Shown here: one piece after another, positions 150 to 58,240 of the stretch
Numbering within the stretch: position 1 is the stretch's first letter
How the letters are laid out: every line of letters starts with the position of its first letter
Assembly: GCF_009914755.1 (NCBI RefSeq)
Contig: NC_060939.1
Length of the DNA stretch: 64,000 bases
Reading direction: 5' to 3' (one strand)
From: the human T2T-CHM13v2.0 reference genome, Homo sapiens
The notes under the pieces: generated by a model
The model's input: the letters and a program-made list of their open reading frames with translations, nothing else
Told to the model about the DNA's origin: nothing
Databases searched by the model: none
Translations under genes and position numbers: made by a program

Positions 150-2876
<2,727 letters not shown>

Positions 2877-15950: not shown

Positions 15951-16307
15951 TGACCTCAGGTGATCCACATGCCTCGGCCTCCCAAAGTGCTGGGATTACA
16001 AATGTGAGCCACCATGCCTGGCCAAAACATTTTTTAATGGTTTGTAGAGATGAGATTTCACTATGCCCAGGCTGGTCTTAAACTCTTGGACTCAAGAGAT
16101 CTGCCCACCTCGGCCTCCCAAAGTGCTGGGATTATAGGCATGAGCCACTGAGCCCAGCCAGGACTTGGTCCTTTAAGAAGCAGGTGTGGGCCGGGTGCGG
16201 TGGTTCACGCCTGTAATCCCAGCACTTTGGGAGGCTGAGGCAGGCGGATCACAAGGTCAGGAGATCGAAACCATCCTGGCTAACACGGTGAAACCCTGTC
16301 TCTACTA

Positions 16308-48289: not shown

Positions 48290-49330
48290 GTAATTCCCCA
48301 AATATCTGAGAATTTTCTTTTCTTTAAGTCACAGTCATCCTGGCAGAAGGCTGTAGGTCCCTTTGGGGAAGACTGGGAAAAAGATTAACAATGTAAATTT
48401 TTGGCAATGTAGCAGCGTACTTCCCCAAGATCACCCAGCCTCCCCTTCACTTAAGGGGTTGTGGGCCTGTGAACTGGCTCAAGTCTGGGAATTGATTGAG
48501 GGTTTTAGATCTGTGTTTCATTAATTTGAGTTAGTCTTTTATTCAGTTGACCTAGAATTCTTCATTTTTTAAACAACAACTAAGACTTTGGTACAGCCCA
48601 TTAGCTCTCCCTGTGGATACCATGGACTACACAATGCCATGGGTGTCTGTGAGTCAAATCATTCTGACTGCTGCTTTGACACTGCTTTCCACTGTGGTGA
48701 CCACACCCACCTCATCTTTGGTGATTAAGGACAGCCCATGTTCCCTGCCACCCCAGGATTCAATTATCCTCATTTTACTTAAAGATACCAGTCCAGTGGC
48801 TGCAGTTCCTGCTGTAACATTTTGCCTACTGAGAGCACAAGCTCAAAGCTCTTCCAGGATACTGGGCTCATCTCACAATATTCTTTCTCATGATCGTTGT
48901 GAGGAGTATGTTCTGTAGACCCTTCAGTGTGAGTGAGCAGGTCTGACATAATAAATCCAGTCTCCCTGAGTTTTTGCATACCTTTCTGTACACATAAACC
49001 AAGGAAGTTGTGGCATCTCAACTTTATGTACCTTAGGTAAACTCTGATTCTGTTTCAGCCAACCAACCAAGTCACCAAACAAATAAGCAAACAGCCAACC
49101 AATCAACCAACAAGCAAGCAAGCAAGCAACAAACCAACCAAACAACCAAGCAAGGAAGCAAGCACCACCAACCAAGCAAGCAACCAACCAAGTAACCGAT
49201 CAAACCAACCCTTGGAGCCCTTTCTAAAGCTTTGACCTACAACTCTGAGTCCAGAATCTCTGTTTAGTGGGCCAACATTAATAAATTTAGCCTAATCCAA
49301 CTTTATGTTACTTTCACCATGGTGCCACAC
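48290..49330 (-). mobile_element. ERVL (HERV-L/ERVL-type) internal gag remnant, interrupted by a microsatellite
   Basis: Minus-strand fragments KVEMPQLPW, GMQKLRETG, WIYYVRPAH resemble ERVL gag (EMP.LPW..VEEGIQRLREIG..EWI.H.RP); frameshifted. Confidence 0.75.
49056..49210. repeat. Degenerate (AACC/AAGC)n microsatellite
   Basis: Read directly from sequence. Confidence 0.9.
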
Positions 49331-49410
49331 ACTTAATATCCATTCCCACATATATTCTCCAGATTTCCTTCTGTATAAATTGCATGTGTGTGTGTGTGTG
49401 TGTGTGTGTG

Positions 49411-50359
49411 TAGAAAGAGAGGATCAACTGAAAAATCACACAATTTTATAAATTTAGAAAAGAGAGCTTTATTTCTTATAAAGGTTTGCAGTCTGCAAGG
49501 TGGCCATTATGACAGGCTGGGAAGTGTGGCCTACAGCCAAGGCCAGAGGCAGGCATTTCCAGGGAGGGAGGGAGAGGACAGGAATTTGAGCCAAATGAGT
49601 TGGCTACATATACATACTCAATAGGATATCAGAGGAGCTATATCATTTTATGAGAATACTCATAAAAGAGGTCCTAACACATGCATATTCAATAAACATG
49701 CATGTTCATTCTGGGGTGGAGACTTGGCATTTAAATGTATTATAATTAGGCCCTACACATCAAAAAGTGAAGCAGGGACATGAAGGTACTCAGCCTCGTA
49801 AAGGCACAGCCTCTAAAACTGGCCAGAACCAGTCCATGGAGGATGGTCTCTTATCAGGAGAAAGTTACTGAAATCAGTCCCTTGTCCAGAGAAAGCTGTC
49901 GTTAAGGTTAGTGGGGCAGGAGATCAGTTACTCAGCATCTGTGAACTGGGTGAGTTGTAATTGTTTTAATCTTCTCTCACAGCCATCTCTCACAGCCAGT
50001 GCTTGCTTGGCTGCTAGAGAAAAATAAAACCCATGTGGTAGCTAGAATTTAGTTAATTCTTTAAGAGTAGGGTACAAGACTTAACCCTCGCCTGGCATGG
50101 CCCTAGGTCCTGTTTATAATTTGAGGTCTTATTGCCACAAAGAGTCTGTTCTGTCAGTCTCATGATCTCTATTTTAACATCAATGCTGTTCAGTTGTTGG
50201 GTCTAAACCATAAGAGGGAGGGAGGTACAGGGAGGTATGTCTGACTTCCTGTCCTGTCATGGCCAAGAACTGAATTTTAAGATTTATTTGAGGTTCCGTT
50301 GGCCAACAGGGGGTCTGTTAAGTTGGGTGGGGGGCTTAGGATTTTAGTTTTAGTTCTCA
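49411..50359 (-). mobile_element. ERV1 MER4-group solo LTR (MER49-like, ~950 bp)
   Basis: Minus strand starts TGAGAACTAAAACTAAAATCCTAAGCCCCCCACCCAACTTAACAGACCCCCTGTTGGCCAA, the MER4-group LTR 5' signature; subfamily guessed from length. Confidence 0.75.
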
Positions 50360-52221
50360 AGGGAGATAAAATAATTTAATCAATTGGCCCCTGCGACTGT
50401 GGGACTAACATGGCTATGATCTGTCGGACAGACTTCAGGGTGGCACCCAGGCAAAATTCTATGCTGTAGTAAATGCATCATGCACATTTGTAACAATATG
50501 TACATAACAATGTCACAAAATACTTTCACGGTGACACCTAGATTAGTATTTTATTGAATAGCTGATGATATAAACTGGCTCATTTGATGCCAAGACTGAC
50601 CATTACCACCATACCAAGGTCATCACTGATCAGAGGCCTAACCCAAGGAGGGGGTCATGTGCAGACCCAGCAGTGGGGAGGAAAGATGCTGCAGAGGAGA
50701 CAGATGCCCACAGAGGCCCCTGAGCAGATACCATGCTCACTAAGTGGTAAGTATAGACTCAACGTAGGCTGTAAGGTCTCCCCCTGTGCAAATGGGACAT
50801 CCACTTGAGAGTCAAGGGCCTGTTTGGGTGGCAGGGATAGCCACTTCTGAAGGTAGAAAGGAAATAAGCCACCAAATTGGTATCTTTCTGTGAAATGGAC
50901 ATCGTGCTTAGAATCTCCATTTTCCCCACAACCTGGAGGAATAAGTACTGTCATGTGCATTTTGTAGCTGAGGAATCTGATGCAACAAAATTAAATTACT
51001 TGCCTAAGCAATTAGCAATTAACCAAGTCTTTCTGACTCAGAAACTCAGCTGTTGCCTGTTCATATCCAGCCCCTGTATTGGGGTCAAGATCTGGCCTGT
51101 TCTCAATGCAGCAAGATCCAGGCAGATCACACTGGACTCCCAGCACTGAATCTGGCTCAAGGGGACATCAAATTTGACTGGGTCGTGGGGCTCAGGAGCA
51201 TCACTCTCAAAAATAGTGGTACAGGAAGAGGCGATGACCCTAAACAGCATTTGCAGGCAGATCCCATGTTAATCATAAGGGTCAGGACTCTCTCACTTTT
51301 CTGTCTCTCTCTCTGTCTCTCCTCTAGGGCTGACCCCACATTGGACACCACTGCATCCATGTCCATCACACACCACAGCTGCCTTTTCTTCTGCCTGCTT
51401 ATGGGAAAGTCCCCTCCTCTCCTCCGTTTTCTTCTCTTCCTGCCCTATCACACCGTGCACTTCTCCCTTTCCTTAAAGAACCACCATCAACTTTAGGAGG
51501 AGGGAAAGGGGTGGCTCTGGCAGGAAAAGCCAGAATCCCCTCTAGCCAGCAGAGAGAGAGGAATGGCTGCATGTTTTCTCCCCCAATCCAAGGCACTAGG
51601 TTTTGGCTAGGTTGCAGGTTCCAAGCTGCTCTCCTGCTGTGTCGGTGAGTTCTGGTTAACCTGCAACCTCCTGATGTGGCCACTGCAGTTCATCGAGTCT
51701 TCAGGGACTCCCCATGGCCTGGAGTACTTTGCCTTGCTTACACGGGAGAGGAGAATGGATTTATAGAGAACATCATCTAAATCCAACTTGACCATTGTGT
51801 GGCCACACTTGCTAGATTGCTTTAGTCTAAATCTAGCATTGTAGAAAGACGGGGGAGCTTGGAGCTGCACAAACCCAGGTCTGGAACTGGCTCCTTACCT
51901 TGAAAGGTGAATAATCCTGGCAGGACTCTTAGCCTTCCTGGGCCTCAGTTTCTTTATCTGTTTCTTGGGAAGGAGGATCTCTGCTGGTTGGTTGGGTGAT
52001 GTGGGGGCTGTGTGAAAACAACTTGTCAATACAAGCCAAAATAGGAATATTTCTCCACAGAGTATGAAGGTCAAATGAGAGAATACATTTAAATTAAATG
52101 GAAAATTTAAATGGCAAAAAAGGCAAAGCTGTATTGAAAGTTCTGAGCTTCTCTATAAGGAGCTTTTTGACTATGTAAGAATCCTATACTCGTTCCCCCT
52201 AAATATAAAAAAAAAAGTTGA

Positions 52222-52512
52222 AGGAGGCAGAAGGGAGAGTGATGCACGATGGGCGAGGACTTCACCTACTGTTGCTGGCTTTGAGGATGGAGGAAGGAGG
52301 CCACAAACCCAGAAGCTGGAGCCCCTAGAAGCTAGAAAACGCAGGGACCTGATTCATCCCTTGAGCCTCCAGAAGGGACATAGCCCCACCAGCACCTTGA
52401 CTTTAGCCCAGTGAGATCCTCTTAGGACTTTTGGCAACCAGAACTATAAGACGGAAATGGAAGCCCCTGAGTCTGTAGCTGTTTGCTGCAGCAGCAATAG
52501 AAAACTAATGCA
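52222..52512 (+). mobile_element. MLT1 (MLT1D-like) LTR 3' part
   Basis: GCTGGCTTTGAGGATGGAGGAAGG.GGCCAC...GAGCCTCCAGAAGG...CACCTTGACTTTAGCCCAGTGAGA...CAGCAGCAATAGAAAACTAATGCA. Confidence 0.8.
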
Positions 52513-52530
52513 GAGCCCAAGAAATCACTG

Positions 52531-52745
52531 GTGATGAGATGGGGAAGTGGGCTCAGGAGGTCTGGATCTGTGATGAGATGGGGAAAGTGGGGGAGGTCTG
52601 GATCTGTGATGAGATGGGGAAAGTGGGCTCAGGAGGTCTGGATCTGTGATGAGATGGGGAAAGTGGGCTCAGGAGGTCTGGATCTGTGATGAGATGGGGG
52701 AAGTGGGCTCAGGAGGTCTGGATCTGAGTTGGGGATCTGGAGTGG
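52531..52745. repeat. G-rich ~40-bp VNTR, 5 copies (GTGATGAGATGGGGAAAGTGGGCTCAGGAGGTCTGGATCT)
   Basis: Near-identical units read directly; the second has a small deletion. Confidence 0.95.
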
Positions 52746-53486
52746 AAGGGGAATTCATTTGTTCATTGTCTATCCTTTTGCATTGATTCAGTTTTTTTTC
52801 CATATATATATATGTGAATTTCACAATAAAAGTTTTTTCCAAAATAAAAGAAACAAAAGGGGCTTTTTGCAACTCAATTCCTATCTATGTCTGAGTCCAC
52901 TTGTATTGAATGAGTCTTTCTGCTAACGTCCTTATATTTGGGTGACAATCTGAATGTCAGTGACCAATCAGAGCAGAGGCAGACCTTGGAGTGGGCAGGG
53001 CATCCTGAGGGCCCTGATTCCTGCCATGAGGCATAACCCTTTAGGTGCCAGACCATGGGGAGGTCCAGGGGTTGCAGGGGAGGGCTGTGCATCTGCAATG
53101 ACTCTCAGGGGGCTCCCAGTGGTGGCAATTGGTGAATCTGCACGGCAGTGTTTCAATATTGTCACAGCCCTGCTGTCTCTCATGCTCTCAAAAAGCATTT
53201 CTCTTACCTGTGACAGACTTCCTATACCTAACAGCTTGCAAAAATGTTCCAGGTTAACGAGAATAATCTCTCGGAGCCATACCTACCTGCTTGGGGTCTC
53301 AGTTTCCCCAACTGTCTCCAGACAAGTTAGGCTAGAAGGCCCCTGAGCCTCAGCCCCTCTATACCCCTCCTGTCACCCAGACCTGATCTGGGGCTTGCAC
53401 CCTGGGTGCAGCATGACAGGGGTGGGCAGGGGCTGGCTCTGGGCCAGAGGACCCTTTCTGATGGACTTCAGCTGTTGGCCTTCCAG

Positions 53487-54730
53487 GGGAGACTGATCAA
53501 CCTCACAAGAGTCATACGGTGAGTAGCGGTGGGCAAATCCATCCCCCTCATCTTAGATTTATGGGGAGACAGAGAGAAAGAGGAGACACTCCAGGAAGAC
53601 CTGCAGGTGGGAGTACCAGGTTGAAACCAAGGACACCTTCCTGGAGGAGCTGCTGTTTGAGCCAGCTCTGAGAACAGGTGGGGACAGGACTGGAGAGGAG
53701 AAGGGTGTCCCCTATGAGCAAAGACTGGCCACCACCCAATCTAACACCCCCACAGGGACCCTGTGGCATCCCTGTCCAGTCCCTGTCACCACCCAGTTTT
53801 TCCCTCTGGACCCAGGAATTCAAAGTAAGCAAGGAGGTCCGCTGCTCCAGTTGGCTGCATATAATTACAACCTTGAGCCCAAGCAGCACTTTGGGTCCTG
53901 GTTTGGGACCATGAAGCGGCTCGGTGAGACTGAGAGGTAAGGCCAGGGCAGGAATTGGGATAGTGGGATTGAACTCTCCCTGGGGGCCAGCCTCAGAAAG
54001 CCTGTGGCCATGGCCTCTTGGTCAACATCAGATCCTGTGGTCTGGCAATGCCTGGGGTACCCAGACCTCACTCTGGACAGGCCCTGGGAGGGGGCCCTGG
54101 TGAGATTCCTGGCAGCCTCACAGCCACTCTTCTGTCCATAGCTACAACATGTCATGCCAGCTGGAGGCTCCATCCCAGTTGGCTGGGAGCACAAAGGCCA
54201 GGAAGATAGACATCACCCACCACAGGAGCCAGTCGGGTCCTGAACCAGGGCGGGCAGAGGTTGGCTGCCTTGGGATATGGGTGGGCTCAGGGAGTCAGAC
54301 AGCAAGGGACTAGCCTCCCATCCTACTGCTGACCAGCCCTGTGACTGGGGAGAGTCACCTTACTTCTCTGGGCCTCAGTTTCCCCCTCTGTGGAGTGACA
54401 CTAAATGATCTCTCTGGAGACTGGGATCAATAGGGCACTGGTGATTGACCAGGCACTCAGCACATGCCTGGAGCACACGGTGCAGGGCTGTGGTGGGGAG
54501 GTGGCCTGAGTTCCTGGGGAGTCACCCATGTGTGCCTGCCGTTCTGACCAGCCACCAGGCACTCAGGGCAGAGCCCACTACCAGCAGCAGCTCACACCCC
54601 GATACCAGCTCAGAGGCGGCCCCTAGCTCAGCAGCAGGGACATCACGGACACTTTAAGCTGCTACTAGGGTGGCTTCTCCAGCTCCCACGTGGAGAGGGG
54701 TCCCAGCTGAGTCCCACTCACGTGGAGTCT
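53487..54730 (+). pseudogene. Unprocessed RALGDS/RGL4-like pseudogene fragment (C-terminal RasGEF/CDC25 region plus Ser-rich linker), four exons
   Basis: AG/GT-bounded exons 53487-53518 (GRLINLTRVI), 53816-53936 (EFKVSKEV/LLQLAAYNYNLEPKQHFGSWFGTMKRLGETE), 54142-54231 (SYNMSCQLEAPSQLAGSTKARKIDITHHRS), 54552-~54730 (HQALRAEPTTSSSSHP/QLRGGP*LSSRDITDTLSCY*GGFSSSHVE) are colinear with recalled RALGDS GRLINFEKRRK-EFEVIAQIKLLQSACNNY...QFGAWFRAVERLSETE-SYNLSCELEPPSESAS...-RQAPSTELSTSGSSHS...QLRCGPYLSSGDIADALS...SSSSDVE. Frameshifts plus TAG stops at 54624 and 54666. Confidence 0.85.
54325..54410. mobile_element. MIR fragment in intron 3 of the RALGDS-like pseudogene
   Basis: CTGTGACTGGGGAGAGTCACCTTACTTCTCTGGGCCTCAGTTTCCCCCTCTGT is MIR core-like. 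Confidence 0.7.
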
Positions 54731-55190
54731 CATGCCCATGAAACTGCCATTCACCACTGGCCAGGCTCATGAGGCCGCATGAAACGGGGGTCACTGGGCA
54801 GGAGATATCAGGGGAACAGAGAGGGTGGTTGAATTTTTGTATAATAGGCAGTGCAAGTGTTTACCGTTTGGGAGGGGAAAGGTTTGTTATTATTAGCAAT
54901 GTTACACTTGAATATTATACTAAAATCCAGTTTCTCTATAACCTGGGAGTTGCTCTTTTGTTCTTTCTTTTCCCATCTTAATTAAAATGAGATGCAGACT
55001 CTCACGGTCCACAGTCGATTAAGAAATCTTGCACGGCCATCAGGTTATGTCTTGGAGAGCAGAGTTTCAGTACCATCAGCCTGGCAAGGAGCCGAGCCTG
55101 CTCCTCAGAGCTGCCGGGACTGCGAGAATTGGCATGTTCACAGGGCACTGTCACAGCCTCTGAAACATGCTGTCTTTAAAGACGTTTGCA

Positions 55191-55500
<310 letters not shown>

Positions 55501-57486
55501 CAAAGACATTTGCAAGGACCATGTCCTCACCCAGAATGGTGCCTGCCTTTCTACAGTTTTTCAGGAAGAGGAAACATTTTCTGCTTCTCTCGCTGAGGTT
55601 TTTTTTAACCACCCATTAGGAACCTATAGATTTCAGGATCGAACACTGGGATTCCCTCAGCACTAAAGGAGGAAAATTGCAAACAGAGCTGAAAGTGCAA
55701 TGTGCAAAGGTGAGGCTAAGGAAGGTTCTTAGCCAGTAGACCAAGGGCAGGAAGGACACTGCCTCCTCAGTCTCCCACTAGGGAACTTGTGATTCGTCTC
55801 CCCTGACCTCAGAATTCCTTGTCATGTTTGTTTTGTCTCCAAGGGAAGGGTTTGAATTACAGAATTTAAGGCTAGAGTGAGCCTCGTGCAGTTAACATTA
55901 ACCCTCTCTCTCCTTCGCTGGCCGAGGTGAAGTCCGGGAACATGTAGTTCTGACGTCCACTCTCTCGGGGGATCACCAGTTCACCCATCTCACCTGGCAA
56001 GCTGGGCCCTAGTTTGGCGACAGGCATCTTCCACCCACCTGGGAGGCAGGGTTCAACACTCTGCCTCTGACCTTGTTTCCTTCTTCTGCCATCTGCTTAG
56101 GCAGCCAGAAGGGGTTGTCCAGCCAGCACCTGGGCTTTGGCGCTCCTCAAGTAGGTGGAGGAAGTTTCAGGCACCTGGCTCCTCAGGTGTCTGCCATCCA
56201 GGTGCTCTTCAGGCCTGCCCAGCAGAGCTCTCTTGATCCAGCTAGAACTGGCCAGAACTGACTCACTCAGGAATGTGTAGACTTTGGCATCAGGGGCTGC
56301 TTTAATTTGCACAATTTCCAAATACCTCTTTTTTCTTCTTTTTCTGATGAGTCATCTCCCTAGACTTGCATTTTAAAGAGATAGATAGTTATCAGGTTCC
56401 AGAGAAGACATGGTAGAACATTTATATCTCAAAGACACAGAGCTGAGACTTCAGTTTTAGATACTATAATTTGCCTAAACCAAAAAGGAAGGTGTAGGTA
56501 AAGTTCTAGTCAAGACAGGATGGCCAGGAAAAACACCTTAAACCAAGGGACGGCTTGCTTTGCTGATTTAAGCCAATGGCTTCTTTATCATAAGACTTCC
56601 CAGTGATTTAGTCCTCCCTCTCTTCCAGTGCACAGAGACATACCCCTCCTTACAAATAAAAATGTTCTTTATAGATGTAAATTTATTTTACAAAAATGTT
56701 TCAAAATAACCAGATGAAAATCATCCTTATGCCAGAAAGACTTGTTTTTTTTTTTTCATTACTAGAAATGAAACAGTAAGTATTTGTTGTATTGACATAC
56801 TTAGGCTTAGACCTATGTTTAACATGAAAGCCTAATAATAGCACTGTGGTTAGACTGTAGCCTATTTTTCCAAACCATCATTTTATTATTAAGGAAACGA
56901 AGGATCAAATACCTTTCATTCATCTGATATGATCCTTTAAAACACATTCCACTAATAAGTCCCATTTGGAACAGCTGAAAATCTTTTAATAAAACTTTTT
57001 AAAGATGAGCTCATGGCTTAGTGTAAATTTCACAAGCTTAATTAGGTCAAATGGAAGGAACTCAGATGAGTAGTTGCCCAATCAGAGCCCATTTGTAAGT
57101 CATCAGACCCCTCCATGACCTTAAAACTCCACTCTGACTTAATTATTGCAAACCTATATACAACAAAGTGAAAGGATTAATTTTCATTCATCAACCTCTC
57201 AATCCCAGATTTTCAAAGAAAAAACCTATGTAAGGAATACTTACCAAAACCAGACAGGAAAATTAGAGCCTGCATACTTTAGAGTCAAATTTGTTCCACT
57301 ACAGCCAGGTCGCATACAATTACATCATTTGGTTCTTCATACACTCTAGAACTGACTAGGACAGACTTTAGCATAGAAAAACTGTAAGAAATCGGTTCTG
57401 AAACATAGAAATTGCAAAGTTCAAAAGGCTATGAAAAAAACTAATGTAAATGAGAGACTCCCCTCCTTTTGTTTTAAAGAAATAGA

Positions 57487-58240
57487 CCCATCAGAGAAAT
57501 GCAAATCAAAACCACAATGAGATACCATCTCACACCAGTTAGAATGGTGATCATTAAAAAGTCAGGAAACAACAGGTGCTGGAGAGGATGTGGAGAAATA
57601 GGAACACTTTCACACTGTTGGTGGGACTGTAAACTAGTTCAACCACTGTGGAAGACAGTGTGGCCATTCCTCAGGGATCTAGAACTAGAAATACCATTTG
57701 ACCCAGCCATCCCACTACTGGGTATATACCCAAAGGATTATAAATTGTGCTGCTATAAAGACACATGCACATGTATGTTTATTGCGGCACTATTCACAAT
57801 AGCAAAGACTTGGAACCAACCCAAATGTCCAACAATGATAGACTGGATGAAGAAAATGTGGCACATATACACCATGGAATACTATGCATCCATAAAAAAT
57901 GATGAGTTCATGTCCTTTGTAGGGACACGGATGAAGCTGGAAACCATCATTCTCAGCAAACTATCGCAAGGACAAAAAACCAAACACCGCATGTTCTCAC
58001 TCATAGGTGGGAATTGAACAATGAGAACACTTGGACACAGGAAGGGGAACATCACACACCAGGGCCTGTTGTGGGGTGGGGGGAGGGGGGAGGGATAGCA
58101 TTAGGAGATATACCTAATATAAATGATGAGTTAATGGGTGCAGCACACCAACATGGCACATGTATACATATGCAACAAACCTGCACATTGTGCATGTGTA
58201 CCCTAGAATTTAAAGTATAATTAAAAAATAAAAAAAGAAA
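57487..58240 (+). mobile_element. 5'-truncated L1PA (relatively young) 3' end with open ORF2 C-terminus and TSD
   Basis: ORF 57499..58017 is the L1 ORF2 C-terminal 172 aa incl. [18 protein letters not shown]; G-rich 3'UTR, A tail; TSD AAAGAAATAGA at 57476-57486 and 58238-58248. Confidence 0.95.

What the first reader, a model, noticed from the sequence alone, without database searches (positions are those of the whole stretch)
53487..54730. Hidden intron-containing RALGDS/RGL4-like pseudogene missed by the ORF track
Seen: four exons with AG/GT boundaries and compact introns (297, 205, 320 bp). Exons 1 and 2 (32 and 121 nt) are each 1 nt short of the length implied by the recalled RALGDS peptide, and exon 4 has a frameshift and two stops. 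Known (from memory): RALGDS has this peptide order, and RGL4 is a RALGDS-derived gene ending shortly after SCQLEP. Inference: this copy has RGL4-like residues (EFKV, LLQ.AA, SCQLE) yet keeps the downstream Ser-rich exon, so it may be a relic of a separate, old RalGDS-like paralogue, possibly unannotated and spread by segmental duplication. The intronic MIR supports DNA-level origin.
Basis: partly seen in the sequence, partly recalled or inferred. Interest (0 to 1): 0.8.

Follow-up and report, generated by a model that had tools for sequence, protein, structure and literature searches.

The report
Dead RalGDS/RGL4-type gene fragment, copied twentyfold
This is a real but dead, intron-keeping fragment of an ancient RalGDS/RGL4-type gene that was later copied about twenty times around human centromeres; it is an ordinary genomic fossil, useful mainly for tracing how RGL4 arose.

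Summary
Window 53487-54700 has four exon-like blocks that align exon by exon and intron by intron with RALGDS (chr9) and, for the first three blocks, with RGL4 (chr22).

The relic is longer than reported, 53406-55984. It is cut off 81 nt upstream of the 33-nt micro-exon. It lacks a ~4 kb interval that holds all RA-domain exons. It then continues into sequence homologous to the RALGDS 3' flank, interrupted by an Alu.

It is old. It differs by 33% from RALGDS and 41% from RGL4 in introns. In the ML tree the duplicated family, RALGDS, and a clade of RGL4 plus the other old relics meet at one node. Two derived characters shared with RGL4 and those relics (chr7, chr9, chr16), polarised by RGL1 and RGL2, suggest it is the earliest branch of the RGL4 lineage (about 0.65).

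All 20 full copies (chr1, 2, 15, 16, 22) carry the same frameshifts. Exon blocks vary as much as introns, so it was dead before it was duplicated.

There is no catalytic domain, no open frame and no RefSeq model. Interest is modest.

The parts
53406..53486 (+). Remnant of the intron upstream of the micro-exon. 53406 is the 5' breakpoint of all homology.
   Evidence: Matches to RALGDS, RGL4, chr9_109.56, chr16_38.81 and chr7_65.25a all begin at 53405-53407. 81% identity to the RGL4 intron.
53487..53518 (+). Block 1: homologue of the 33-nt RALGDS micro-exon (GRLINFEKRRK), with a 1-nt deletion (32 nt). AG before, GT after.
   Evidence: alignment. 32 nt in 20 of 20 copies; the acceptor is AG in 17 of 20 and AT in 3 chr16 copies.
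53519..53815 (+). Intron 1 (297 nt), alignable to the RALGDS and RGL4 introns.
53816..53936 (+). Block 2: homologue of the 122-nt RALGDS exon (EFEV...SETE). It is 121 nt, with a private 1-nt frameshift plus the -1/+1 change shared with RGL4 (LLQLAA).
   Evidence: 121 nt in 20 of 20 copies.
53937..54141 (+). Intron 2 (205 nt).
54142..54231 (+). Block 3: homologue of the 96-nt RALGDS exon (SYNLSCELEPP...). It is 90 nt and reads SCQLE as in RGL4. It has TTG where RGL4 has its TAG stop.
54232..54551 (+). Intron 3 (320 nt). It holds an old interspersed repeat (MIR-like core about 54332-54480) that is also present in the RALGDS intron.
   Evidence: The core recurs at 3 unrelated loci. The name MIR is recalled, not from a call.
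54552..54700 (+). Block 4: first ~149 nt of the Ser-rich RALGDS exon. It has a 7-nt deletion and in-frame TAGs at 54624 and 54666. It is cut at ~54700 by the deletion junction.
54700..55190 (+). Homologue of sequence 0.6-1.2 kb downstream of the RALGDS stop codon (3'UTR or flank). The ~4 kb in between, which holds all RA-domain exons, is missing.
   Evidence: RALGDS exons are mapped, the RA domain is named, and the C-terminus is confirmed.
55191..55498 (+). Alu insertion with target-site duplications at 55178-55190 and 55502-55514. It is also the start of a second-tier duplicon carried by 10 more loci.
55499..55984 (+). Homologue of the RALGDS downstream flank (chr9 locus positions 5752-4851). 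This is the 3' end of detectable homology.
   Evidence: Also matched by chr9_109.56 and chr16_38.69.

Best explanation
Window 53406-55984 (+) is a non-functional, unprocessed (genomic-DNA) fragment of an ancient RalGDS-family gene.

Shown:
- It is colinear, introns included, with the 3' part of RALGDS and of RGL4.
- It is truncated 81 nt upstream of the micro-exon, so it has none of the RasGEF catalytic exons.
- It lacks the ~4 kb holding the RA-domain exons.
- It carries frameshifts and stops.
- It sits on the opposite strand inside an intron of the lncRNA LOC105379203.
- It lies in a duplicated segment present 20 times in full (plus 1 partial) near the centromeres of chr1, 2, 15, 16 and 22. 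All copies share the same lesions, and the exon blocks drift as fast as the introns.

Inferred:
- The lineage split from RALGDS on the order of 100-200 My ago. This uses intron JC 0.43 and recalled neutral rates.
- It is most likely (about 0.65) the earliest surviving branch of the lineage that also gave RGL4 and the old relics on chr7, chr9 and chr16. It split off before RGL4 acquired its exon-3 stop codon.
- It died early. It was then swept, already dead, into a primate pericentromeric duplicon within roughly the last 20 My.

It does nothing today. It is a fossil.
For: Anatomy and homology:
- RALGDS locus match E = 1.1e-84. There is one colinear chain 53406-55984 with a jump over about 4 kb.
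- Base-level alignment shows identical splice-site positions. RGL4 is colinear over 53406-54191.
- The chr9 locus is RALGDS: its RA exon hits PDB chain 1rax_A, the RalGDS RA domain, at E = 7.9e-23, and Pfam finds RasGEF and RA.
- The chr22 locus is RGL4: 99% identical to human RGL4, 473 aa.

Truncation:
- No ORF from upstream RALGDS or RGL4 exons hits anywhere else in the 64 kb window.
- Pfam gives 0 families for 7 of 7 window ORFs.

Age:
- Intron p-distance is 0.329 to RALGDS and 0.406 to RGL4. Exon p-distance is 0.305 and 0.406, so there is no excess conservation of exons.

Placement:
- ML tree: the duplicated family, RALGDS, and a 100%-supported clade of chr9_109.56, chr16 and chr7 relics plus RGL4 meet at one node.
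- RGL1 (SACNSY) and RGL2 (SCEVE) share the RALGDS states. All relics and RGL4 share GGCTGCA..AAT and CAG.
- Exon 2 has 5 sites for a root on the RALGDS branch against 1 and 1 for the alternatives.

Duplication:
- 20 full copies and 1 partial.
- Block lengths are 32/121/90/149 in 20 of 20 copies. Pairwise divergence is 0-4.0%, median 2.9%.
- Variable columns: 38 of 392 in exon blocks against 81 of 903 in introns, Fisher p = 0.68.
Against: - The rooting rests on few characters. Several of the 5 exon-2 sites belong to one small -1/+1 event. Exon 3 (RGL2 only) is uninformative: 2, 2 and 3 sites.
- The ML tree itself does not join the window lineage to the RGL4 clade. It leaves a three-way node with RALGDS. 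One 1-nt indel at the exon-3 acceptor is shared by RALGDS and the window family only.
- The RA-exon deletion has different end points in the window family (RALGDS locus ~16116-16073 to 12133) and in chr9_109.56 and chr16_38.69 (~16033-16056 to ~11949-11894). It therefore cannot be counted as one shared event.
- No expression data, GENCODE annotation or other mammalian genomes could be consulted. 'Dead' and 'unannotated' rest on sequence and on the RefSeq table only.
- The dates use recalled substitution rates.
Confidence: 0.8

Rival explanations
1. It is an independent ancient duplicate of RALGDS, unrelated to the event that produced RGL4. On this view the root lies on the branch between {RALGDS, window family} and {RGL4 plus the other relics}. 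The RGL4-like residues are then convergent or ancestral.
For: The window family is closest to RALGDS in raw distance: JC 0.42-0.45, against 0.52-0.58 to RGL4 and the chr7 relics. A clock-like midpoint falls on the internal branch (my arithmetic distances). RALGDS and the window family share the shorter exon-3 acceptor. The deletion junctions differ from those of chr9_109.56 and chr16_38.69.
Against: RGL1 and RGL2 share the RALGDS state at the two diagnostic places. That makes GGCTGCA/AA and CAG/Q derived and shared by the window family, RGL4 and every other relic (5 against 1 against 1 in exon 2). Rates are plainly unequal: root-to-tip 0.21 to 0.53, so midpoint rooting is unsafe.
Confidence: 0.25
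2. It is a recent segmental-duplication copy of the present RALGDS or RGL4 gene.
For: It lies in a classic duplicated region, and one copy lies 1.46 Mb upstream of RGL4 on chr22 in the same orientation.
Against: 33-41% divergence in introns from both genes, against at most 4% among the 20 copies. The Alu at the homologous site in RALGDS is 82% identical while the flanks are 63-68%, so the two Alus are separate insertions and not inherited.
Confidence: 0.01
3. It is a processed (retrotransposed) pseudogene, or a chance resemblance.
For: A processed RGL4-type copy does exist on chr10, so retrocopies of this family occur.
Against: Three introns are retained and align to the parental introns. Homology continues into the flank beyond the coding region. 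E-values are 1e-84 for DNA and 1e-11 for protein.
Confidence: 0.01
4. Some copy is still used, for example as exons of an unannotated plus-strand (testis) transcript or as a regulatory element of the antisense lncRNA.
For: AG/GT pairs survive at blocks 1-3 in 17 of 20 copies. The relic lies in an intron of LOC105379203 (hub table).
Against: There is no open frame. The frameshifts are shared by 20 of 20 copies. Exon blocks are no more conserved than introns among copies or between old lineages. There is no Rfam match in 49000-58000. There are no upstream exons or promoter-bearing 5' part.
Confidence: 0.04

Closest known systems
RALGDS (chr9q34; T2T chr9:145.31 Mb, minus strand)
   Same: Same exon order and identical splice positions for the micro-exon, the EFEV exon, the SYNLSC exon and the Ser-rich exon. 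Alignable introns, including the old repeat in intron 3. Alignable 3' flank.
   Different: RALGDS is intact, with RasGEF_N, RasGEF and RA domains. The window piece has only the last ~11 codons of RasGEF, no RA exons and broken frames. It is 33% diverged.
RGL4 / Rgr (chr22:24.14 Mb; human protein 473 aa, P0001)
   Same: Colinear over 53406-54191. Shares the derived LLQ.AA (-1/+1) and SCQLE states. Both lack an RA domain. A passage in PMC8163975 excludes RGL4 from its list of RA/RB-domain proteins.
   Different: RGL4 is an intact gene that stops at SCQLEPENP in exon 3. The window has TTG at that codon and keeps part of the next (Ser-rich) exon and the RALGDS-type 3' flank, for which no homology was found downstream of RGL4. 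Intron divergence is 41%.
Other old RGL4-type relics in the same genome: chr9:109.558 Mb, chr16:38.67-38.93 Mb, and chr7:57.68, 64.5-64.6 and 65.1-65.5 Mb
   Same: Same gene region, introns kept, and the same two derived states. chr9_109.56 and chr16_38.69 also lack the RA exons and continue into the RALGDS-type 3' flank.
   Different: They are 33-43% diverged from the window copy. chr9_109.56 keeps an upstream exon; the chr7 and chr16_38.81 relics show no homology beyond intron 3. The deletion junctions differ. They form a 100%-supported clade with RGL4 that excludes the window family.
Primate pericentromeric segmental duplications (mosaic duplicons with Alu-rich boundaries)
   Same: 20 full copies at 96-100% identity on chr1, 2, 15, 16 and 22. 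A nested duplicon starts inside an Alu.
   Different: Nothing unusual. The only special feature is the much older gene fossil carried as cargo.

Membership tests
RalGDS-family RasGEF gene (RALGDS, RGL1-4) | RasGEF catalytic domain (PF00617) | tested here: not met
   Pfam gives 0 families for 7 of 7 window ORFs. The RALGDS exon just upstream of the micro-exon covers profile positions 146-170 of 181 and has no counterpart in the window. Only about the last 11 codons could be present.
RalGDS-family RasGEF gene (RALGDS, RGL1-4) | RA (Ras-association) domain at the C-terminus (absent in RGL4) | tested here: not met
   The interval holding the three RA-coding exons of RALGDS (chr9 locus about 16100-12133) is missing.
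RalGDS-family RasGEF gene (RALGDS, RGL1-4) | Sequence homology with conserved intron positions and phases | tested here: met
   Identical splice positions against RALGDS and RGL4. E = 1.1e-84.
Unprocessed (duplicated) pseudogene | Parental introns and flank retained; disabling lesions; no open frame | tested here: met
   Three introns and the 3' flank align. There are frameshifts in blocks 1, 2 and 4 and two in-frame stops.
Processed pseudogene | Introns removed, poly(A) tract, target-site duplications | tested here: not met
   Introns are present. Contrast the intronless chr10 copy.
RGL4 lineage (RGL4 plus its fossil paralogues) | Derived states relative to RALGDS, RGL1 and RGL2: the -1/+1 change giving ..QxAA.., and GAG>CAG giving SCQLE | tested here: met
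   Exon 2 counts are 5 against 1 against 1.
RGL4 lineage (RGL4 plus its fossil paralogues) | Monophyly with RGL4 in a rooted tree | tested here: inconclusive
   The unrooted ML tree gives a three-way node of window family, RALGDS and the others. There is no alignable outgroup for introns. Exon 3 is uninformative.
RGL4 proper (orthologue or recent copy) | TAG stop after SCQLEPENP; high identity to RGL4 | tested here: not met
   The window has TTG at that codon. Intron divergence is 41%.
Segmental duplication (at least 1 kb, at least 90% identity) | Multiple long, highly similar copies | tested here: met
   20 full copies, with pairwise divergence 0-4.0% over 1.4 kb. The flanks are also shared.

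The most novel reading that the evidence does not exclude
The human genome may hold a so far undescribed fossil record of an ancient burst of RalGDS-derived genes. There are at least five old intron-bearing lineages (this 20-copy family, chr9:109.56, two on chr16q11 and two or three on chr7) plus one retrocopy on chr10, and RGL4 is the only survivor. The window family is the earliest branch. It shows the state before RGL4's stop codon arose: Ser-rich exon still attached, RA exons already lost by genomic deletion. If so, RGL4's lack of a Ras-binding domain would trace to a DNA deletion in a proto-RGL4 gene. It would not trace only to the point mutation that now ends the protein.
Probability: 0.4. 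Interest if true: 0.45.

Novelty: new member of a known kind. Interest (0 to 1): 0.3.

Why it matters
On its own it is one more dead gene fragment in duplicated pericentromeric DNA and has no plausible present function. It has two modest uses.

- It adds an item for pseudogene annotation of T2T-CHM13: about 20 loci with no RefSeq model.
- Together with its older cousins on chr7, chr9, chr10 and chr16 it gives dated intermediate stages for how RGL4 (the Rgr oncogene homologue) arose from RALGDS and lost its Ras-association domain.

It also marks a duplicon whose oldest branch appears to be at chr2:110.4/110.8 Mb.

Tried and rejected
- Pfam on the single-block translations gave nothing. This is expected, because the blocks lie beyond the RasGEF profile.
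- The first blastn of the window against the RALGDS and RGL4 loci was swamped by Alu and L1 hits. I filtered by hit multiplicity.
- I searched for further RalGDS or RGL4 exons anywhere in the 64 kb window. There are none outside 53401-55663.
- I searched for homology between the RGL4 or chr7 downstream regions and the Ser-rich exon or the RALGDS 3' flank. None was found, so whether RGL4 once carried the same deletion cannot be tested.
- I looked for a single shared RA-exon deletion as a rooting character. The junctions differ, so I rejected it as evidence.
- The Alu at the same site in RALGDS and in the relic might have meant a young common origin. I rejected this: Alu-Alu identity is 82% against 63-68% for the flanks, and there is no Alu at that site in chr9_109.56 or chr16_38.69.
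- A 68% hit of upstream window sequence to chr9:109.46 Mb looked like wider paralogy. The sequence looks like an old interspersed repeat (recalled consensus), so I dropped it.
- A protein search with the relic's own exon-2 translation found 1 candidate and 0 hits. This is weak evidence that no annotated protein of this lineage exists.
- Rfam over 49000-58000 found 0 matches.
- Literature: 4 searches. None of the listed titles concerned RALGDS or RGL4 pseudogenes (I checked passages of four papers only). One search returned only unrelated papers.

Full report
**Observation**

The sequence at 53487-54730 has four exon-like blocks.

| Block | Window coordinates | Length | RALGDS counterpart |
|---|---|---|---|
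| 1 | 53487-53518 | 32 nt | 33-nt micro-exon (GRLINFEKRRK) |
| 2 | 53816-53936 | 121 nt | 122-nt exon (EFEV...SETE) |
| 3 | 54142-54231 | 90 nt | 96-nt exon (SYNLSCELEPP...) |
| 4 | 54552 onward | ~149 nt kept | Ser-rich exon |

- Introns are 297, 205 and 320 nt. Each block is preceded by AG, and blocks 1-3 are followed by GT.
- A whole-genome DNA search placed the window at chr15:17,980,001-18,044,000 of the held assembly. It found a 69% match over 915 nt on chr9 (E = 1.1e-84) and a short 81% match on chr22.
- I fetched both loci.
- The chr9 locus is RALGDS. One of its ORFs matches the solved RalGDS RA domain (1rax_A, E = 7.9e-23). Pfam finds RasGEF and RA pieces. Its last coding ORF ends in the same C-terminus as mammalian RALGDS proteins.
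- The chr22 locus is RGL4. One exon is 99% identical to 'ral guanine nucleotide dissociation stimulator like 4 [Homo sapiens]', 473 aa. The locus lies near the hg19 position given for RGL4 variants in a table passage of PMC4225141.

- The 33-nt micro-exon has lost 1 nt.
- The 122-nt exon is 121 nt.
- The 96-nt exon has lost 6 nt in frame.
- The Ser-rich exon has a 7-nt deletion and two in-frame TAG codons.
- The repeat core in intron 3 is present in the RALGDS intron too, so it predates the duplication. I call it MIR from recall only.

**Full anatomy**

The relic is larger than reported. Sensitive blastn gives one colinear chain.

| Window | RALGDS locus (chr9) | Note |
|---|---|---|
| 53406-53527 and 53534-54743 | 17466-16073 | micro-exon through the Ser-rich exon |
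| 54700-55190 | 12133 to ~11550 | starts 0.6 kb downstream of the stop codon |
| 55191-55498 | - | Alu insertion |
| 55494-55984 | 5752-4851 | downstream flank |

- About 4 kb is therefore missing. It holds the rest of the Ser-rich exon, all three RA-domain exons and the stop codon.
- Every comparator (RALGDS, RGL4 and three old relics) stops aligning at 53405-53407. No upstream RALGDS or RGL4 exon ORF hits anywhere else in the 64 kb window. The fragment is therefore 5'-truncated 81 nt before the micro-exon and has no catalytic domain.
- This explains the empty Pfam result. The RasGEF profile is already at position 170 of 181 in the exon that is missing.
- Retained introns and flank show that the copy was made from genomic DNA, not from mRNA.

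**Copies**

- The 1.5 kb around the blocks occurs in 20 full copies at 96-100% identity: chr15 x4, chr22 x1, chr2 x7, chr1 x3 and chr16 x5. There is also one partial copy at chr22:17.22 Mb. The same 20 loci are found with the RALGDS exon-2 peptide.
- All 20 have block lengths 32/121/90/149. Pairwise divergence is 0-4.0%, median 2.9%.
- Exon blocks vary as often as introns: 38 of 392 against 81 of 903 variable columns, Fisher p = 0.68. The lesions therefore predate the spread, and nothing has constrained the blocks since.
- The upstream 3 kb is shared by the same 21 loci.
- The 3' tail from inside the Alu onward, and the next 1.5 kb, are shared by 10 further loci. This is a nested duplicon with an Alu boundary.
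- Rooted with RALGDS and chr9_109.56, the two chr2:110.4/110.8 Mb copies branch first (86% support).
- The window copy and chr15:19.52 Mb differ by 0.07%.

**Older relatives**

The genome searches also found much more diverged relatives.

| Locus | State |
|---|---|
| chr7: 57.68, 64.51, 64.63 Mb | old intron-bearing relics |
| chr7: 65.10 Mb | short 68% match over the intron 2 / block 3 region (only); not examined further |
| chr7: 65.25 and 65.52 Mb | old relics, two pieces each |
| chr16: 38.67, 38.69, 38.81, 38.93 Mb | old intron-bearing relics |
| chr9: 109.558 Mb | old relic that keeps an upstream exon |
| chr10: 46.94 Mb | intronless, so processed |

chr9_109.56 and chr16_38.69 also lack the RA exons and continue into the RALGDS-type flank. 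Their junctions (about 16033-16056 to 11949-11894) differ from the window's (16116-16073 to 12133). This could be one old deletion trimmed on both sides later, or two separate deletions. I cannot tell which.

**Phylogeny**

- I built an ML tree over 1167 aligned columns of introns and exons, under K2P+G4. Three groups meet at one node: the window family (stem 0.198), RALGDS (0.26), and a 100%-supported clade of chr9_109.56, chr16_38.69, (chr16_38.81, chr7_65.25a) and (RGL4, chr7_64.63/57.68).
- Intron p-distances from the window are 0.329 to RALGDS, 0.340 to chr9_109.56 and 0.406 to RGL4. Exon distances are about the same. These exons have therefore been essentially unconstrained in the dead lineages.
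- For the root I used RGL1 and RGL2 exons found in the same genome.
  - RGL1 (LLQSACNSY) and RGL2 (SCEVE) share the RALGDS state.
  - The window family, RGL4 and every other relic share GGCTGCA..AAT (a -1/+1 change giving ..AA..) and CAG (SCQLE).
  - In exon 2, 5 sites favour a root on the RALGDS branch, against 1 and 1 for the alternatives. Exon 3 is uninformative: 2, 2 and 3 sites.
- I therefore read the window family as the earliest branch of the RGL4 lineage, with probability about 0.65. The rival, an independent old RALGDS duplicate, gets about 0.25.
- Consistent with an early split, the codon that is TAG in RGL4 (and in chr16_38.81 and chr7_65.25a) is TTG in the window and TCA in RALGDS and chr9_109.56.

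**Age**

- With recalled neutral rates of about 1-2.2e-9 per site per year, JC 0.43 to RALGDS suggests a split on the order of 100-200 My ago.
- At most 4% divergence among copies suggests spread within about the last 20 My.
- A passage of PMC3141262 says RGL4 is present in primates and apparently other mammals but missing in rodents. This fits an old origin.
- RALGDS has its own Alu at the homologous site, with a homologous target-site duplication. The two Alus are 82% identical while the flanks are 63-68%, and chr9_109.56 and chr16_38.69 have no Alu there. These are parallel insertions and not a sign of recent common ancestry.

**Function**

I find none.

- There is no catalytic or RA domain, no open frame and no conservation of the blocks.
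- There is no Rfam match.
- There is no RefSeq model. The only annotated feature is an antisense lncRNA whose intron contains the relic (hub table).
- No protein in the large protein set shares words with the relic's exon-2 translation (weak evidence).

**Known or new**

- The four literature searches listed nothing about RALGDS or RGL4 pseudogenes. The names RGL4P, RALGDSP, 'RGL4-like' and LOC105379203 occur in 0 papers.
- I saw only search listings and the cited passages of four papers. I read no supplements.
- I could not consult GENCODE, pseudogene databases or repeat-family tracks.

**Verdict**

The object is an ordinary kind of thing: an old unprocessed pseudogene fragment carried in a segmental duplication. 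Its modest value lies in reconstructing the history of RGL4.

Noticed in passing
L052 (chr10:46,939,790-46,942,876), about positions 1450-1780, minus strand: An intronless (processed) copy of an RGL4-type mRNA. The exon before the micro-exon, the micro-exon, and the EFEV-type and SYNLSC-type exons lie contiguous. It carries the derived AA and SCQL states and several stops.
   Followed up: partly
L023, L024, L025, L048, L050, L053, L054 (chr7:57.68, 64.63, 65.25, 65.52 Mb); L056, L057 (chr16:38.81, 38.69 Mb); L055 (chr9:109.558 Mb): Several old (30-45% diverged) intron-bearing RGL4-like relics. The chr7:65.25 Mb relic aligns with RGL4 for 2 kb further upstream. chr9:109.558 keeps the exon before the micro-exon.
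   Followed up: partly
window 55178-55514; chr9 locus L014:1244-1565: The relic and RALGDS each carry an Alu at the homologous site, with homologous target-site duplications. The Alus are 82% identical and the flanks 63-68%, so this looks like parallel insertion at a hot spot.
   Followed up: yes
window 55202 onward: Ten further loci (chr9:44.8, chr2:92.0/94.7/95.0, chr10:38.8/43.1, chr22:6.4/11.3/17.5, chr14:8.5 Mb) share the sequence starting inside the Alu. This is a nested duplicon with an Alu boundary.
   Followed up: partly
chr22:17,222,989-17,226,244 (not fetched): This copy lacks the equivalent of window ~52880-54082, so it has lost blocks 1 and 2.
   Followed up: no
window 52531-52727: In the three chr2 copies at 87.38, 110.42 and 110.80 Mb this ~196-nt stretch matches several adjacent places, so it is tandemly expanded there.
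   Followed up: no
proteins P0005-P0079: Old World monkeys have many predicted 'ral-GDS-related protein-like' proteins, mostly 77-92% identical to a human RGL4 exon. Armadillo has several 'RALGDS-like' proteins that keep an RA domain. These are lineage-specific expansions of this gene family.
   Followed up: no
L021:6036-6077 (RGL4 exon 3), L056, L025: The TAG that ends RGL4 lies in the same codon as a TAG in the chr16:38.81 and chr7:65.25 relics. The stop is therefore older than those splits. chr7:64.63 has CAG there.
   Followed up: partly
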